DNA of 4,570 bases from a virus (taxonomy: Duplodnaviria > Heunggongvirae > Uroviricota > Caudoviricetes). The DNA is taken from IMG/VR virus record IMGVR_UViG_2634166457_000015; one strand, written 5' to 3'. The translations under genes and the position numbers were made by a program. The stretch's first letter is position 1; the number at the start of each line of letters is the position of its first letter. The notes beneath the pieces are model-generated. The model was not told the origin of the DNA. It worked only from the letters and a program-made list of their open reading frames with translations, and did not search any database. Shown in pieces: positions 1-4,570 of the stretch.

Positions 1-63
1 AGCGTCACGGATAACGTCCGGTACAGTGATTTCAGTTGTACAATTGAACAGGTGGTGAACTGA
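1..63 (+). CDS. M: 3' end of minor tail protein M gene (partial; last 20 codons plus stop)
   Basis: Frame 1 is open from base 1 and translates to SVTDNVRYSDFSCTIEQVVN, then TGA at 61..63. The stop overlaps the L start by one base (TGATG), the coupling arrangement I recall for lambda M/L. The C-terminal ..EQVVN matches my recollection of lambda gpM. Only 20 residues are visible, so family assignment is weak. Confidence 0.55.
   Translation, partial: SVTDNVRYSDFSCTIEQVVN
50..58 (+). promoter_or_regulatory. Shine-Dalgarno-like element for L (AGGTGGTGA)
   Basis: A purine-rich AGGTGG lies about 7 nt upstream of the ATG at 63, inside the end of M. Confidence 0.5.
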
Positions 64-761
64 TGCAGGATATCCGGCAGGAAACACTGAATGAATGCAC
101 CCGTGCGGAGCAGTCGGCCAGCGTGGTGCTCTGGGAAATCGATCTGACAGAGGTTGGTGGAGAACGTTATTTTTTCTGTAATGAGCTGAATGAAAAAGGG
201 GAGCCGGTCACCTGGCAGGGGCGTAAGTATGAGGCATACCCGATTGACGGCAGCGGCTTTGAGATGAACGGCCGGGGCAGCAGTGCCCGCCCGTCGCTGA
301 CGGTGTCCAATCTGTTTGGCCTTGTCACCGGGATGGCGGAGGACCTGCAGAGTCTGGTGGGGGCCACGGTGGTCCGCCGCCGGGTGTATGCCCGTTTTCT
401 GGATGCGGTGAATTTCGTTGCGGGCAATCCGGAGGCGGACCCGGAGCAGGAGCTGAGTGACCGCTGGGTGGTGGAGCAGATGTCGCAGCTGACAGCCATG
501 ACGGCCTCGTTTGTGCTGGCTACACCGACCGAGACGGACGGAGCGCTGTTTCCCGGTCGCATCATGCTGGCGAACACCTGTATGTGGGATTACCGGGGAG
601 ATGAATGCGGGTATAACGGTCCTGCGGTGGCGGATGAGTTCGATAAACCCACCACCGATATCCGTAAGGACAGATGCAGCAAGTGCATGCGCGGGTGTGA
701 GATGCGCGGCATGGTGGCTAATTTTGGCGGTTTCCTTTCCATTAACAAACTTTCGCAGTAA
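63..761 (+). CDS. L: Tail tip assembly protein L (gpL family, with C-terminal Fe-S cysteine cluster)
   Basis: Complete 232-aa ORF, ATG 63 to TAA 759..761. The N-terminus MQDIRQETLNECTRAEQSASVVLWEIDLTEVGGERYFFCNE and C-terminus GNFGGFLSINKLSQ are recognisable as lambda gpL from memory. Cysteines at residues 173, 182, 205, 208 and 212 (nt 579..698). It sits between M and K as expected. Confidence 0.93.
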   Translation: MQDIRQETLNECTRAEQSASVVLWEIDLTEVGGERYFFCNELNEKGEPVTWQGRKYEAYPIDGSGFEMNGRGSSARPSLTVSNLFGLVTGMAEDLQSLVGATVVRRRVYARFLDAVNFVAGNPEADPEQELSDRWVVEQMSQLTAMTASFVLATPTETDGALFPGRIMLANTCMWDYRGDECGYNGPAVADEFDKPTTDIRKDRCSKCMRGCEMRGMVANFGGFLSINKLSQ

Positions 762-766
762 ATCCA

Positions 767-1510
767 ATGACACAGACAGAATCAGCGATTCTGGCGCATG
801 CCCGGCGGTGTGTGCCTGCGGAGTCGTGCGGCTTCGTGGTGAGAACGCCGGAGGGGGAGCGGTATATCCCTTGTGTGAATATCTCTGCAGAGCCGGAGGC
901 GTATTTTCGTATTGCACTGGAAGACTGGCTGCGGGCAGAGATGCAGGGGGAGATTGTGGCACTGGTCCACAGTCATCCCGGTGGTCTGCCCTGGCTGAGC
1001 GAGGCCGACCGGCGGCTGCAGATAAAAAGTGCACTGTCCTGGTGGCTGGTCTGCCGGGGGGAAATTCATAAATTCCGCTGTGTGCCACATCTGACAGGAC
1101 GGCGCTTTGAGCACGGGGTGACGGACTGTTACACGCTGTTCCGGGATGCCTACCATCTGGCGGGAATTGATATGCCGGATTTTGAGCGTGAGGATGACTG
1201 GTGGCGCAACGGTCAGAACCTTTACCTGGACAATATGGCGGTCACCGGCTTTTACCGGGTGCCCCTGTCCTCTGCACAGGCGGGCGATATCCTGCTGTGC
1301 TGCTTTGGCGCATCGGTGGCCAATCATGCCGCCATTTACTGCGGCAACGGTGAACTGCTTCACCATCTGCCTGAACAACTGAGTAAACGGGAGAGGTATT
1401 CCGAAAAATGGCAACGACGAACGCATTCTGTCTGGCGTCACCGCCACTGGCACGCATCTGCCTTCACGGGGATTTGCAACGATTTGGCCGCCGCCTCAGC
1501 CTGTATGTGA
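767..1510 (+). CDS. K: Tail tip assembly protein K (JAMM/MPN metallopeptidase-like domain fused to NlpC/P60-like domain)
   Basis: 247-aa ORF, ATG 767 to TGA 1508..1510. A JAMM-type motif HSHPGGLPWLSEAD (H-x-H-x7-S-x2-D) lies at nt 968..1009. An NlpC/P60-type Cys sits in DCYTLF (Cys codon 1127..1129), with His residues in NHAAIY and ELLHH downstream. The start is only 5 nt after the L stop and has no clear SD, so translation is probably coupled. The 3' end overlaps I by 103 nt. Confidence 0.88.
   Translation: MTQTESAILAHARRCVPAESCGFVVRTPEGERYIPCVNISAEPEAYFRIALEDWLRAEMQGEIVALVHSHPGGLPWLSEADRRLQIKSALSWWLVCRGEIHKFRCVPHLTGRRFEHGVTDCYTLFRDAYHLAGIDMPDFEREDDWWRNGQNLYLDNMAVTGFYRVPLSSAQAGDILLCCFGASVANHAAIYCGNGELLHHLPEQLSKRERYSEKWQRRTHSVWRHRHWHASAFTGICNDLAAASACM
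1389..1396 (+). promoter_or_regulatory. Shine-Dalgarno-like element for I (GGGAGAGG), inside the K coding sequence
   Basis: A purine-rich GGGAGAGG lies about 11 nt upstream of the ATG at 1408. The spacing is on the long side. Confidence 0.35.
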
Positions 1511-2088
1511 ACACGGCAGCGGAAGCCATCCGGGCGCTGTCGATGCAGATACCGGGATTCCGCCGTCAGATGAACGAAGGCTGGTACCAGATACGTATTG
1601 CCGGTGATGACACGGCACCGGAGGCGGTGTACGCCCGTCTTCACGAACAGCTGGGTGAGGGGGCGGTCATCCACATTGTGCCGCGACTGGCCGGGGCCGG
1701 AAAGGGTGGACTGCAGATTGTGCTGGGGGCGGCGGCCATCGTGGGGTCGTTCTTCACGGCCGGGGCATCAATGGCGTTATGGGGTTCAGCCCTGGCAGCC
1801 GGTGGTTTTTCTGCCACCACGATGCTGTTTTCACTGGGGGCCAGCATGATTCTGGGTGGTGTGGCTCAGATGCTGGCCCCGAAGGCTAAAGTACCGGAGT
1901 ACAAAAGCACGGATAACGGCAGACAGAACACGTACTTTTCCTCGCTGGATAACATGATTGCCCAGGGGAACCCGATGCCGGTGCCTTACGGTGAAATGCT
2001 GGTTGGCTCCCGGCGAATCTCCCAGGACATCAGCACCCGTGATGAAGGCGGTGACGGGAAGGTGGTGGTTATCGGGCGGCAGGCATAA
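1408..2088 (+). CDS. I: Tail tip assembly protein I (N-terminal ubiquitin-like beta-grasp domain, then Gly/Ala-rich hydrophobic segment)
   Basis: 226-aa ORF, ATG 1408 to TAA 2086..2088. ARICLHGDLQRFGRR, AEAIRAL, GAVIHIVPRLAGAGKGG, NTYFSSLDNMIAQGN, YGEMLVGSR and GKVVVIGR are recognisable as lambda gpI from memory. Its first 103 nt lie inside K in a different frame, the same overlap arrangement I recall for lambda K/I. Confidence 0.9.
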   Translation: MATTNAFCLASPPLARICLHGDLQRFGRRLSLYVNTAAEAIRALSMQIPGFRRQMNEGWYQIRIAGDDTAPEAVYARLHEQLGEGAVIHIVPRLAGAGKGGLQIVLGAAAIVGSFFTAGASMALWGSALAAGGFSATTMLFSLGASMILGGVAQMLAPKAKVPEYKSTDNGRQNTYFSSLDNMIAQGNPMPVPYGEMLVGSRRISQDISTRDEGGDGKVVVIGRQA

Positions 2089-2093
2089 AACAT

Positions 2094-2130
2094 AAAAAAT
2101 CCCGCAGTGCTCACGGACAGGAACTGCGGG
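2094..2130 (-). terminator. Intrinsic-terminator-like hairpin plus U-run, read on the minus strand
   Basis: CCCGCAGT (2101..2108) and ACTGCGGG (2123..2130) are exact reverse complements, giving an 8-bp stem with 6 G:C pairs and a 14-nt loop. On the minus-strand RNA the stem is followed by A-UUUUUU (plus-strand A-run 2094..2099). On the plus strand there is no U-run after it, so it is directional. The loop is longer than is typical for a terminator. Confidence 0.4.
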
Positions 2131-2190
2131 AGAGTTACGAAGATTAACTATAGAGAGTTATTCTTATGTCACGACAAAAAACATTAACGC
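2094..2190 (-). ncRNA. Candidate small RNA of about 95 nt, antisense to the late operon, in the I-J spacer (hypothetical)
   Basis: Bounded by the sigma70-like promoter at 2197..2224 (minus) and the hairpin/U-run at 2094..2130 (minus). It contains no ORF longer than a few codons. The region is AT-rich compared with the flanking genes. Sequence inference only. Confidence 0.2.
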
Positions 2191-2196
2191 AGAGAA

Positions 2197-2224
2197 ATTA
2201 TTAGCGCCACAGTCAGTGTGTGAA
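2197..2224 (-). promoter_or_regulatory. Candidate sigma70 promoter on the minus strand (-35 TTCACA, 16-nt spacer, -10 AATAAT)
   Basis: Read on the minus strand, TTCACA (plus 2224..2219) matches TTGACA at 5 of 6 positions and AATAAT (plus 2202..2197) matches TATAAT at 5 of 6, with a 16-nt spacer. The predicted start is near plus coordinate 2190, transcribing leftward. Found by eye and not scored. Confidence 0.25.
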
Positions 2225-2261
2225 AATGTGAAGATATTCAGAATTTTTATTCAGTCATGAT

Positions 2262-2295
2262 ACAGGCATCCTCCGGGATGCCTGTTGTTTTTGTG
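2262..2295 (+). terminator. Intrinsic-terminator-like hairpin plus U-run on the plus strand, 32 nt upstream of the J start
   Basis: ACAGGCATCC (2262..2271) and GGATGCCTGT (2276..2285) are exact reverse complements, giving a 10-bp stem with a 4-nt loop TCCG, followed directly by TGTTTTTGTG (2286..2295). This is the canonical rho-independent terminator shape. On the minus strand the hairpin is not followed by a U-run. Confidence 0.5.
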
Positions 2296-2314
2296 CGTAA
2301 CAGTTATCACAGTA

Positions 2315-2322
2315 AAGGGTGA
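2315..2322 (+). promoter_or_regulatory. Shine-Dalgarno-like element for J (AGGGTGAG)
   Basis: A purine-rich AAGGGTGAG ends 4 to 5 nt before the ATG at 2327. Confidence 0.5.
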
Positions 2323-2326
2323 GACA

Positions 2327-4570
2327 ATGGGCAAAGGTGGCGGCAAGGCGCACACGCCGGTAGAGGCAAAGGACAATCTTAAGTCCACGCAGATGATGAG
2401 CGTGATTGATGCCATTGGTGAAGGGCCGATTGAAGGTCCGGTGAAGGGGCTGCAGAGTATCCTGGTGAACAAAACCCCGCTGACGGACACGGACGGTAAT
2501 CCTGTGATACATGGTGTGACAGCGGTCTGGCGCGCCGGGGAGCAGGAGCAGACACCACCTGAAGGCTTTGAGTCCTCCGGGGCGGAAACCGCACTGGGCG
2601 TGGAAGTGACGAAGGCAAAGCCGGTGACGCGCACCATTACGTCCGCGAACATTGACCGCCTGCGGGTCACCTTCGGGGTGCAGTCACTGTTGGAGACCAC
2701 CTCAAAGGGCGACCGTAATCCCTCTTCTGTCCGACTGCTGATTCAGTTACAGCGTAACGGTAACTGGGTGACGGAAAAGGATGTCACCATTAACGGCAAG
2801 ACCACCTCGCAGTTTCTGGCGTCGGTGATTCTGGATAATCTGCCTCCCCGTCCTTTTAACATCCGGATGGTCCGGGAGACAGCGGACAGCACCTCGGACC
2901 AGCTGCAGAATAAGACGCTCTGGTCGTCATACACCGAAATCATCGATGTGAAACAGTGCTACCCGAACACGGCGATTGTGGGGCTGCAGGTGGATGCGGA
3001 GCAGTTTGGCGGTCAGCAGATGACGGTGAACTACCATATCCGCGGTCGCATCATCCAGGTACCGTCAAACTATGACCCGGAAAAACGCACGTACAGCGGC
3101 ATCTGGGACGGCAGCCTGAAACCGGCATACAGCAACAACCCGGCCTGGTGCCTGTGGGACATGCTGACTCACCCGCGCTACGGCATGGGAAAACGTCTGG
3201 GGGCGGCAGACGTGGACAAATGGGCGCTGTATGCCATTGCGCAGTACTGCGACCAGACGGTCCCGGATGGTTTCGGGGGCACAGAGCCGCGGATGACCTT
3301 TAATGCGTACCTGTCACAACAGCGTAAGGCGTGGGACGTTCTCAGTGATTTCTGCTCGGCGATGCGCTGTATGCCGGTATGGAACGGCCAGACGCTGACG
3401 TTCGTTCAGGACCGCCCGTCGGATGTGGTGTGGCCGTACACCAACTGCGATGTGGTGGTGGATGATAACGGCGTGGGGTTTCGCTACAGCTTCAGCGCCC
3501 TGAAGGACCGCCACACGGCGGTGGAGGTGAATTACACCGACCCGCAGAACGGCTGGCAGACCTCCACGGAACTGGTGGAAGACCCGGAAGCCATACTGCG
3601 CTACGGGCGCAACCTGCTGAAGATGGATGCGTTCGGTTGCACCAGTCGCGGTCAGGCCCACCGTGCCGGGCTGTGGGTGATAAAGACCGGACTGCTGGAA
3701 ACGCAGACGGTGGATTTCACGCTCGGGTCACAGGGGCTGCGTCACACACCCGGTGACATTATTGAAATCTGTGATAACGACTATGCCGGGACCATGACCG
3801 GCGGACGTATCCTGTCCATCGATGCCGCCAGCCGCACCCTGACACTGGACCGTGAGGTGACCCTGCCGGAGACAGGTACATCGACGGTGAACCTGATTAA
3901 CGGCAGCGGTAAGCCGGTGAGTGTGGACATCACCGCACACCCCGCGCCGGACCGGATACAGGTCAGTACCCTGCCGGATGGCGTGGCGACATACGGTGTG
4001 TGGGGACTCTCCCTGCCGTCACTGCGTCGTCGCCTGTTCCGCTGTGTTTCCATCCGGGAAAACACGGACGGCACCTTTGCCATCACGGCGGTGCAGCACG
4101 TACCGGAAAAAGAAGCCATCGTGGATAACGGGGCCAGCTTTGAGCCGCAGTCAGGCACCCTGAACAGCGTTATTCCACCGGCAGTGCAGCACCTCACGGT
4201 GGAGGTGAGCGCGGCTGACGGCCAGTATCTGGCACAGGCGAAATGGGACACGCCGCGGGTGGTGAAGGGGGTGCGCTTCAGTCTGCGACTGACCAGCGGA
4301 AGCGGAGAAGGCAGCCGTCTGGTGACCACCGCCATCACTGCGGATACAGAGCATCGTTTCAGTGGTCTGCCGCTCGGGGAATACACCCTGACAGTCAGGG
4401 CAATTAACAGTTATGGCCAGCAGGGCGAACCGGCCACCACCACGTTCAGGATTAATGCACCTGCGGTACCCGCCACGATTGAGCTGACACCGGGCTATTT
4501 TCAGATAACAGCGGTCCCGCGTCTTGCGGTGTATGACCCGACGGTACAGTTTGAGTTCTGGTTTTCGGAG
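2327..4570 (+). CDS. J: Host specificity protein J / central tail fibre (tip attachment protein), N-terminal 748 codons, truncated by the window edge
   Basis: ATG at 2327 opens a frame with no stop through base 4570 (2244 nt, exactly 748 codons). The translation begins [22 protein letters not shown] and contains [116 protein letters not shown] and [29 protein letters not shown], all recognisable as lambda gpJ from memory. It is missing from the ORF track only because it lacks an in-window stop. The C-terminal receptor-binding region lies outside the window. Confidence 0.95.

What the first reader, a model, noticed from the sequence alone, without database searches (positions are those of the whole stretch)
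2094..2224. Candidate antisense small RNA of about 95 nt with its own promoter and intrinsic terminator
On the minus strand a near-consensus sigma70 promoter (-35 TTCACA at 2224..2219, 16-nt spacer, -10 AATAAT at 2202..2197) points toward a hairpin and U6 tail ending near 2094. This predicts a transcript with no meaningful ORF (longest is about 6 codons). The hairpin is directional, with a U-run only on the minus strand, and abuts the 3' end of I, so it could instead simply block antisense read-through into the tail genes. The plus strand of the same interval is CA-rich at 2168..2190 and GU-rich at 2211..2230, the kind of low-complexity seed seen in sRNA-target or sRNA-sponge pairs, but this is speculative.
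Basis: inference. Interest (0 to 1): 0.6.

Follow-up and report, generated by a model that had tools for sequence, protein, structure and literature searches.

The report
Prophage tail-operon small RNA (PasB family)
The predicted antisense small RNA between tail genes I and J of this lambda-like E. coli prophage is real in sequence terms, but it is a divergent allele of a small RNA family already detected by experiment (PasB in EPEC, EcOnc22-24 in EHEC), so it is a correct but largely known finding.

Summary
On the minus strand, TTCACA-16 nt-AATAAT (2224..2197) lies 68 nt upstream of a 9-bp GC-rich hairpin (2131..2100) with a U6 tail (2099..2094). This predicts a non-coding RNA of about 97 nt in the 248-nt gap between tail genes I and J. 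No promoter-terminator pair of this kind appeared in 3000 shuffles of the window.

It is not new in kind. The same gap, strand and terminator position hold PasB in EPEC E2348/69: 83 nt, seen on Northern blots, Hfq-dependent, 37 RIL-seq partners. The three Hfq-CRAC peaks EcOnc22/23/24 of O157 Sakai (about 85 nt, destabilised without Hfq) also fall in I-J gaps on the antisense strand.

The window carries a separate allele, here called class B. Its promoter region and terminator stem match PasB, but the RNA is only 64% identical overall and 57% identical in the body. About 1,230 of 20,395 records from complete E. coli genomes carry this allele at 90% identity or more, and the hits listed show no annotated feature.

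Every allele class keeps a 5' U-run, three to five ARN triplets (two in two hybrid alleles), UUAAUCUUC and the terminator. Distant phages lack the module, so it looks like an inserted moron.

The most likely mechanism is a trans-acting, Hfq-dependent base-pairing RNA expressed from the lysogen. Its targets are unknown.

The parts
2094..2190 (-). Predicted primary transcript of about 97 nt: a PasB-family small RNA, class B allele. The 5' end is inferred from the -10 hexamer; the 3' end is the end of the U-run.
   Evidence: Aligns with PasB of E2348/69 (L001 1762..1844/1859). Folds at -22.4 kcal/mol, z = -2.67. No ORF longer than 6 codons. No Rfam hit.
2197..2224 (-). Sigma70-type promoter: -35 TTCACA (2224..2219), 16-nt spacer, -10 AATAAT (2202..2197).
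   Evidence: Scores 10 of 12. The -35 and spacer are identical in class A and B alleles. The -10 is TATAAT in every other locus of the 87-locus IMG/VR set (GATAAT in PhiR12_4). It is AATAAT here, in Stx2c/Stx1a phages and in the Sakai class D allele, which is expressed.
2227..2252 (-). AT-rich upstream block (GAATAAAAATTCTGAATATC) plus a first TTCACA repeat. It may be an UP element or a regulator site.
   Evidence: Nearly invariant in all allele classes, even where the -35 and spacer differ (classes C and D). Flanking sequence changes abruptly just upstream of it. Function is inferred only.
2176..2190 (-). Conserved 5' leader GCGUUA followed by a U6 run (2181..2176).
   Evidence: G1, C2, U4, U5, A6 and part of the U-run are invariant over 10 alleles.
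2157..2165 (-). AAG-AAU-AAC, three consecutive A-R-N triplets; a candidate site for the distal face of Hfq.
   Evidence: Eight of the ten alleles compared keep a run of 3-5 ARN triplets here despite sequence divergence; the two hybrid alleles (PhiR12_4, L071) have 2. The role is inferred from known Hfq motifs (Tree 2014).
2139..2147 (-). UUAAUCUUC, the only body segment nearly invariant in all alleles; a candidate seed.
   Evidence: AUCUU is invariant, UUAAUCUUC nearly so, in alignment A2. It lies in the single-stranded zone upstream of the terminator where Zhu et al. 2026 place the PasB seed. In the window allele it is predicted mostly paired (P unpaired 0.33, against 0.44-0.97 in the others).
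2094..2131 (-). Intrinsic terminator: stem 2131..2123 paired with 2108..2100, a 14-nt loop, and a U6 tail at 2099..2094.
   Evidence: Seven stem pairs (CCCGCAG/CUGCGGG) are invariant in 10 alleles with no covariation. The PasB 3' end maps to the equivalent U-run.
2262..2295 (+). Plus-strand hairpin ACAGGCATCC-TCCG-GGATGCCTGT followed by TGTTTTTGTG, upstream of the J start (2337). It belongs to the tail operon, not to the small RNA module.
   Evidence: -19.9 kcal/mol, z = -4.35. Compensatory changes among E. coli alleles. A structurally equivalent hairpin with a T-run precedes J in lambda and in Enterobacter, Rahnella and Pantoea prophages that lack the small RNA.

Best explanation
Window 2190..2094 (minus strand) encodes a member of the PasB / EcOnc22-24 family. 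This is a small non-coding RNA gene carried as an antisense-oriented moron between tail genes I and J of lambda-like E. coli prophages.

In a lysogen the late operon is silent. Host RNA polymerase starts at the sigma70 promoter of the module and stops at its intrinsic terminator, 6 nt short of the I stop codon.

The product is largely unstructured apart from the terminator hairpin. It carries the hallmarks of an Hfq-dependent base-pairing RNA: a 3' hairpin with a U-tail, an internal U-run and an (ARN)3 block. It most likely acts in trans on host or prophage mRNAs through the conserved single-stranded stretch around UUAAUCUUC and the allele-specific sequence beside it.

Because the body of the window allele is only 57% identical to PasB, its target set probably differs from that of PasB.

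Shown here: the anatomy, homology, position, conservation pattern and insertion history. Shown elsewhere, for other alleles: expression, size, Hfq dependence and many RNA partners. Inferred: expression of this particular allele, its exact 5' end, its seed and its targets.
For: Locus identity:
- PasB (NC_011601 1466343..1466261, minus strand, 83 nt) lies between E2348C_1436 (I) and E2348C_1437 (J).
- The first 12 nt of the PasB Northern probe, AATCCCGCAGTG, are identical to window plus strand 2098..2109.
- The two I-J gaps align at 88% overall. The promoter region and terminator stem are near-identical and the body is diverged.

Expression of homologues:
- pasB has baseMean 482 and 1082, against 5-15 for I and J. 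The log2 fold changes reported for pasB in the paper's differential-expression table are -6.8 and -2.4, and the paper reports Hfq-dependent stability by Northern blot.
- PasB has 37 RIL-seq interactions, 30 of them with CDS or 5' UTR regions.
- EcOnc22/23/24 peaks lie in the I-J gaps of Sakai prophages Sp15, Sp14 and Sp11, antisense to I and J. EcOnc22 is about 85 nt and destabilised in a hfq deletion.
- After the coordinate shift between genome versions, the peaks fall inside the predicted RNA. The shift is +137 to +146 at the AgvB anchor; the genome length difference of +128 is from my recollection of the older record.

Conservation pattern: ten alleles share the leader, U-run, AUCUU core and terminator, and eight of them keep 3-5 ARN triplets. 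No consensus structure appears other than the terminator.

Not chance: 0 of 3000 shuffles gave the promoter-terminator pair.

Insertion: distant I-J junctions (lambda, Enterobacter, Rahnella, Pantoea) have only a 45-60-nt gap holding the plus-strand hairpin, with no PasB-like sequence in the Enterobacter/Rahnella/Pantoea loci.

Prevalence: about 1,230 records from complete E. coli genomes carry the class B allele at 90% identity or more, and no feature is annotated under any listed hit.
Against: - No transcript data exist for this exact allele.
- Its -10 is AATAAT rather than the TATAAT of most relatives, and its U-tail is 6 rather than 7. Either could lower expression or Hfq binding. The Sakai allele, which is expressed, also has AATAAT.
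- The window sub-allele is rare: 15 records at 95% identity or more.
- It has a private cluster of substitutions that is predicted to pair the conserved AUCUUC stretch into a hairpin.
- Measured homologues are 83-85 nt, against 91-98 nt predicted from the promoter. The start site may lie elsewhere, or the RNA may be processed.
- The original study found no common target motif for PasB, so the seed is unproven.
Confidence: 0.8

Rival explanations
1. The RNA works mainly in cis. It is a true antisense regulator of the late tail mRNA, because it is perfectly complementary to the I-J spacer. On induction, or on infection by a related phage with the same allele, pairing could trigger RNase III cleavage between I and J. 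The late mRNA could instead soak up the small RNA, or convergent transcription could interfere with late transcription.
For: The full 97 nt are complementary to the late transcript by construction. The module is always in antisense orientation at this one junction. Body alleles are mosaic and sharply bounded, which would fit escape from another phage's antisense RNA.
Against: The RNA overlaps no coding sequence or ribosome-binding site. PasB is abundant when I and J are essentially untranscribed, and it forms chimeras with many unlinked RNAs. Predicted duplexes with the I and J initiation regions are no better than shuffled controls in four alleles.
Confidence: 0.12
2. In this particular window the gene is a decaying copy. 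The promoter and terminator motifs remain by descent, but the AATAAT -10, the U6 tail and the private body substitutions leave it weakly expressed or non-functional.
For: Within the 87-locus IMG/VR set, only the window has AATAAT rather than TATAAT at the -10. The exact sub-allele is found in only about 15 records. The conserved AUCUUC is predicted to be sequestered.
Against: AATAAT and U6 are shared with the Stx2c/Stx1a phage allele B3. AATAAT is also shared with Sakai class D, which gives a Northern signal. The flanking tail genes L, K and I are intact and J is open to the end of the window, so the prophage region is not visibly decaying.
Confidence: 0.06
3. Chance promoter-like hexamers lie next to a hairpin whose only job is to stop antisense transcription from entering the tail genes; no discrete RNA is made.
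For: Single promoter-like hits occur at about the rate seen in shuffles.
Against: 0 of 3000 shuffles reproduce the pair. The promoter region is the best-conserved part of the gap across roughly 100 loci. Homologous loci yield discrete RNAs.
Confidence: 0.02

Closest known systems
PasB (E2348CN_0006), a prophage PP6 small RNA of EPEC O127:H6 E2348/69 (Pearl Mizrahi et al. 2021, PMC8550237; Zhu, Shabalina and Storz 2026, bioRxiv 10.64898/2026.05.13.724894)
   Same: - It lies in the same I-J gap and on the same antisense strand.
- The 3' end falls at the same U-run, 6 nt past the I stop.
- The -35, spacer and upstream block are identical.
- The terminator stem is the same, and both keep the leader, U-run, ARN block and AUCUUC.
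   Different: - The RNA is 64% identical overall and 57% identical in the body.
- The -10 is AATAAT here and TATAAT in PasB; the tail is U6 here and U7 in PasB.
- PasB has a 5' hairpin, whereas the window allele has a central hairpin.
- Published PasB variants are described as differing by only a few nucleotides. PasB-2, which differs at position 27, equals my allele A2. The window allele therefore appears to lie outside the described variant set.
EcOnc22 / EcOnc23 / EcOnc24, Hfq-CRAC small RNAs of E. coli O157:H7 Sakai prophages Sp15, Sp14 and Sp11 (Tree et al. 2014, PMC4104026, Table S2)
   Same: They lie in I-J gaps on the antisense strand. EcOnc22 is about 85 nt and Hfq-dependent. They share the AATAAT -10, the conserved upstream block, AUCUUC and the terminator.
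   Different: They are the class D allele, 64% identical to the window RNA, with a different -35 and spacer. Assigning the peaks to the RNA depends on a coordinate shift of about +130 to +146 between genome versions. I bracketed that shift with anchors rather than reading it directly. I found no paper that equates EcOnc22-24 with PasB.
AgvB / AsxR anti-sRNAs of lambdoid prophages (Rfam RF02702, RF02703)
   Same: They are prophage-encoded, Hfq-binding, expressed in the lysogen and antisense to late transcription. As a family they have a conserved 3' part and a variable targeting part, and they contain ARN motifs.
   Different: They sit at a different locus, the moron site downstream of PR', not I-J. 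They are shorter (51-60 nt). There is no sequence or covariance-model match: no Rfam hit in the window at E = 1 or below, although the same models find AgvB in Sakai. No sponge activity is known for PasB.
Morons of lambdoid phages (Juhala et al. 2000, as summarised in Tree 2014)
   Same: It is an extra DNA module with its own promoter and factor-independent terminator. It is inserted between two conserved late genes and expressed from the repressed prophage.
   Different: The cargo is a non-coding RNA rather than a protein, and it points against the operon.

Membership tests
PasB / EcOnc22-24 small RNA family | Located in the gap between tail assembly gene I and host-specificity gene J of a lambda-like prophage, on the strand antisense to them | tested here: met
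   Window genes: L 63..761, K 767..1510, I 1408..2088, J from 2337. PasB and EcOnc22-24 lie in the same position and orientation.
PasB / EcOnc22-24 small RNA family | Sequence homology to the reference RNA and its promoter | tested here: met
   88% identity over the whole gap. The promoter region is near-identical. The RNA is 64% identical overall, 57% in the body and 76% in the terminator part. Intermediate and mosaic alleles link the classes.
PasB / EcOnc22-24 small RNA family | 3' stem-loop with a poly-U tract (intrinsic terminator and likely Hfq site) | tested here: met
   A 9-bp stem with U6. Seven pairs are invariant in all alleles.
PasB / EcOnc22-24 small RNA family | Conserved single-stranded stretch just upstream of the terminator (the proposed seed) | tested here: inconclusive
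   UUAAUCUUC is retained, but the sequence beside it differs (GUAACUCUC here, AUUUGUCUG in PasB). In this allele the stretch is predicted to be mostly paired.
PasB / EcOnc22-24 small RNA family | A discrete transcript of 80-100 nt, stabilised by and bound to Hfq | not testable with these tools
   Shown only for the E2348/69 and Sakai alleles.
AgvB/AsxR anti-sRNA family | Match to the Rfam models RF02702 or RF02703, 51-60 nt long, located at the PR' moron site | tested here: not met
   No Rfam hit in the window at E = 1 or below. The models do detect AgvB in Sakai control loci. The locus is I-J and the predicted length is 97 nt.
AgvB/AsxR anti-sRNA family | Mimics the target site of a core small RNA and sequesters it | not tested
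One PasB RIL-seq partner seen in the table was an intergenic RNA next to pasA.
Phage moron | Own promoter and terminator; absent from related phages at the same junction | tested here: met
   Promoter and terminator are present. Lambda, Enterobacter, Rahnella and Pantoea I-J junctions lack the module.

The most novel reading that the evidence does not exclude
The I-J small RNA locus is a cassette system. A fixed promoter and terminator frame holds a body of about 50 nt that exists in at least four sharply bounded, recombining allele classes (A to D, plus hybrids). Each class would retarget the RNA to a different set of host RNAs, or to the late mRNA of phages carrying the same allele. The allelic diversity would then reflect diversifying selection, either on host reprogramming or on competition between phages. 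The very common, unannotated class B allele would have a regulon distinct from that of PasB.
Probability: 0.2. Interest if true: 0.55.

Novelty: new member of a known kind. Interest (0 to 1): 0.3.

Why it matters
The family is among the more abundant Hfq-bound prophage RNAs in EPEC and EHEC, yet its targets and function are unknown.

This work adds three things:
- PasB and EcOnc22-24 are the same locus family. The papers I could read do not state this.
- The family has at least four allele classes. The window's class is present in about a quarter of complete E. coli genomes, including ExPEC and O157 strains, and no feature is annotated under any of the hits listed.
- The module is an insertion into an otherwise compact I-J junction.

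These points matter for annotation. They also matter for any study that extrapolates PasB targets to other strains, because the bodies differ by about 40%. None of this changes how prophage small RNAs are understood in general.

Tried and rejected
- Rfam scan of the window at E = 1 or below found nothing, so this is not AgvB, AsxR, IsrG, IS009 or STnc100.
- I first suspected AgvB because of the CA-rich plus strand. I rejected this: AgvB sits at the PR' moron site, and the CA-rich stretch is not on the transcribed strand.
- Looked for pairing of the RNA with the ribosome-binding regions of I and J in four cognate allele-phage pairs. The window against the I region gave -22.7 kcal/mol, a fraction of 0.054 against shuffles. 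All the others were no better than shuffles, so I rejected the idea.
- Looked for a plus-strand promoter that could use the 2262..2295 terminator to make a second RNA. Neither the scanner nor inspection by eye found one.
- RNAalifold on 10 alleles found no conserved structure or covariation beyond the invariant terminator.
- Searched one genome per species with protein I. Only 12 loci were confirmed. The close ones were E. albertii or E. coli contamination in unrelated assemblies, so this gave no evidence for the module outside Escherichia.
- Tried to list the RIL-seq partners of PasB from the stored supplement. The table is too large and was cut when stored, so I abandoned this after seeing only summary counts.
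- My first shuffle simulation timed out. I reran it with faster code.

Full report
**Context.** The window is the tail-tip region of a lambda-like E. coli prophage. It holds L (63..761), K (767..1510), I (1408..2088) and the start of J (from 2337), all on the plus strand. The only sizeable non-coding stretch is the 248-nt I-J gap (2089..2336), and the finding lies in it. Identical or near-identical gaps occur in O55:H7 strains and other E. coli. Copies at about 96% identity occur in many Stx1a- and Stx2c-converting phages.

**Observation.**
- The consensus scan reports TTCACA-16-AATAAT at 2224..2197 on the minus strand. At 10 of 12 it is the best promoter-like site in the window.
- Starting from a predicted start at 2190, RNAfold gives a 9-bp GC-rich stem (2131..2123 with 2108..2100), a 14-nt loop and U6 (2099..2094). 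The U-run ends 6 nt after the I stop codon.
- The 97-nt RNA contains no ORF beyond MFFVVT*.
- Taken singly, such motifs are not unusual. Taken together they are: none of 3000 dinucleotide shuffles of the window had a promoter of 10 of 12 or better followed 40-250 nt downstream, on the same strand, by a terminator with 7 perfect pairs.

**What it is.** Table S6 of Pearl Mizrahi et al. 2021 lists PasB at NC_011601 1466343..1466261 on the minus strand. It is 83 nt, lies in prophage PP6 between E2348C_1436 and E2348C_1437, and has the orientation (> <) >. Its Northern probe is AATCCCGCAGTGATCGCGGAGCT. The first 12 bases of that probe equal window 2098..2109.

Fetching that locus shows that the flanking genes are the tail assembly protein I and gpJ. 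PasB ends at the U-run 6 nt past the I stop, exactly as here. The two gaps align at 88% identity. From the AT-rich block upstream of the -35 through the first 20 nt or so of the transcript, and again in the terminator stem, they are almost identical. The central body is strongly diverged.

In the EPEC data pasB has baseMean 482 and 1082, while I and J sit at 5-15. The log2 fold changes listed for pasB are -6.8 and -2.4, and the paper reports Hfq-dependent stability by Northern blot. PasB also has 37 RIL-seq interactions. The homologous RNA is therefore made from the repressed prophage, independently of the late operon, and is Hfq-dependent.

**A second experimental link.** Table S2 of Tree et al. 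2014 lists three Hfq-CRAC peaks in Sakai:
- EcOnc22: Sp15, 2902714-2902774, plus strand, Northern about 85 nt, destabilised in a hfq deletion.
- EcOnc23: Sp14.
- EcOnc24: Sp11.

In the current Sakai record all three positions fall in I-J gaps, and the plus strand there is antisense to I and J. The table uses an older genome version. The AgvB1 peak, located with the Rfam AgvB model, shows a shift of +137 to +146 at 1.94 Mb. From my recollection of the older record (5,498,450 bp) against the current 5,498,578 bp, the total length difference is +128. Anchors at 2.93 Mb and 3.49 Mb are compatible with this range.

With that shift, EcOnc22 lands at about L111 1643-1721. That is inside the RNA predicted from the promoter and terminator there (1637..1727). 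I regard the equation EcOnc22-24 = PasB family as very likely. It is not proven to the base, and I did not find it stated in the papers I could read.

**Allele structure.** I fetched 87 IMG/VR loci with the -35/spacer motif and took representative phage and genome records. Together they give at least four body classes.

| Class | Representatives | Notes |
|---|---|---|
| A | Canonical PasB of E2348/69; SNP variant A2 (L008) | A2 differs at position 27 and so corresponds to the published PasB-2 |
| B | The window; S88 and other genomes; Stx2c/Stx1a phages | The allele studied here |
| C | Stx1_499 and many Stx2a phages | Different -35 and spacer |
| D | CP-1639; Sakai Sp11, Sp14, Sp15 | Different -35 and spacer; EcOnc22-24 |
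| Hybrids | PhiR12_4, L071 | Mosaic of classes A and B |

The window RNA is 64% identical to PasB overall and 57% identical in the body.

In complete E. coli genomes, about 1,230 records carry class B at 90% identity or more, and about 925 carry class A at 95% or more. No annotated feature lies under any hit listed.

Several elements are invariant or nearly so across all alleles:
- the leader GC(G/A)UUA and a U-run;
- the AUCUU core, with UUAAUCUUC nearly invariant;
- the stem CCCGCAG/CUGCGGG followed by A and U6-7.

Eight of the ten alleles also keep a run of 3-5 ARN triplets; the two hybrids have 2.

RNAalifold finds no conserved structure other than the terminator, and no covariation. This is the pattern expected of a mostly single-stranded, Hfq-dependent base-pairing RNA. 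Zhu et al. place the putative PasB seed just upstream of the terminator, which is where AUCUUC lies.

The window sub-allele is rare, with 15 records at 95% identity or more. It has a private cluster of substitutions that creates a central hairpin pairing this stretch. It also has AATAAT instead of TATAAT, and U6 instead of U7. It shares these with the Stx2c/Stx1a allele, and shares AATAAT with the Sakai allele that is expressed.

**Origin.** More distant homologues of I in Enterobacter, Rahnella and Pantoea, and lambda itself, have an I-J gap of only 45-60 nt. That gap consists of a GC-rich plus-strand hairpin with a T-run lying before the J start. No PasB-like sequence was found in the Enterobacter, Rahnella and Pantoea loci.

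The window keeps such a hairpin at 2262..2295. The small RNA module sits between the I stop and this hairpin. Other loci carry extra or different DNA at the same junction:
- an additional 110-nt segment in S88-type gaps;
- a sodC insertion that replaces the promoter in Stx2_EH1846;
- inserts of 500-600 nt in two enterobacterial prophages.

The module therefore behaves as a moron with an RNA cargo, inserted at a junction that tolerates insertions.

**Mechanism.** The best-supported reading is a trans-acting, Hfq-dependent small RNA expressed in the lysogen. Expression and Hfq dependence are shown for other alleles. For this one they are inferred from the shared promoter, terminator and motifs.

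Its targets are unknown. The original study found no common target motif for PasB, and a review lists EcOnc22 targets as unknown.

A cis-antisense role on the late mRNA spacer cannot be excluded. However, there is no overlap with a coding sequence or ribosome-binding site, and predicted pairing with the I and J initiation regions is no better than shuffled controls.

No similarity to AgvB or AsxR exists.

**Verdict.** The finding is real and was correctly interpreted, but it belongs to a small RNA family that is already described. Three things are new: the link between PasB and EcOnc22-24, the recognition of several allele classes, and the prevalence of the unannotated class B. Interest is modest.

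Noticed in passing
window 2262..2295 (+): A strong plus-strand hairpin with a T-rich tail lies 42 nt upstream of the J start (-19.9 kcal/mol, z = -4.35). A structurally equivalent GC hairpin with a T-run, of unrelated sequence, precedes J in lambda and in Enterobacter, Rahnella and Pantoea prophages. E. coli alleles show compensatory changes in it. It looks like a conserved terminator or mRNA-stabilising element inside the late tail operon, and I know of no description of it.
   Followed up: partly
window 2227..2252 (-): An AT-rich block plus a first TTCACA lies 9 bp upstream of the -35 TTCACA, forming a direct repeat. It stays nearly invariant in all allele classes, even in classes C and D where the -35 and spacer are different. 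It may be an UP element or a regulator binding site. PasB is higher under 'non-activating' growth, so some regulation exists.
   Followed up: no
L109 (Stx2a phage Stx2_EH1846) 401..600: A sodC-containing insertion replaces the small RNA promoter, while the RNA body and terminator remain directly downstream of sodC on the same strand. In that phage the RNA could be made as a 3'UTR-derived species of sodC mRNA.
   Followed up: no
L110 (E. coli S88) 1262..1500; also L008 and many IMG/VR loci: In these loci the stretch between the small RNA promoter and J is a different, longer sequence of about 110 extra nt. It holds a hairpin AAACCCCGGTATC-AGCA-GATACCGGGGTTT flanked by T-runs on both strands, which looks like a bidirectional terminator. 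The sequence break lies immediately upstream of the conserved AT-rich block.
   Followed up: no
L092 and L095 (Pseudocitrobacter faecalis, Enterobacter wuhouensis), about 2110..2700: About 500-600 nt of unrelated DNA is inserted between I and J, so this junction accepts other insertions besides the small RNA.
   Followed up: no
L090, L091, L097: Short contigs labelled Streptomyces flavalbus, Parendozoicomonas haliclonae and a Clostridiales MAG encode an I protein 95-100% identical to the E. coli one, together with the PasB-like gap. This is almost certainly E. coli contamination in those assemblies.
   Followed up: partly
window 1408..1510: The long form of I (ATG at 1408, as annotated in lambda) overlaps K by 103 nt. 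RefSeq annotates the homologues from a GTG at the position equivalent to 1507, which overlaps the K stop codon (GTGA). The true start of I is not settled by sequence alone.
   Followed up: no
L111 and L112 (Sakai Sp15 and Sp14): The J gene of Sp15 is split into two annotated ORFs (ECs_2943 and ECs_2944), and J of Sp14 appears truncated. The tail operons are damaged, yet the small RNA module next to them is intact and identical in Sp11, Sp14 and Sp15.
   Followed up: no
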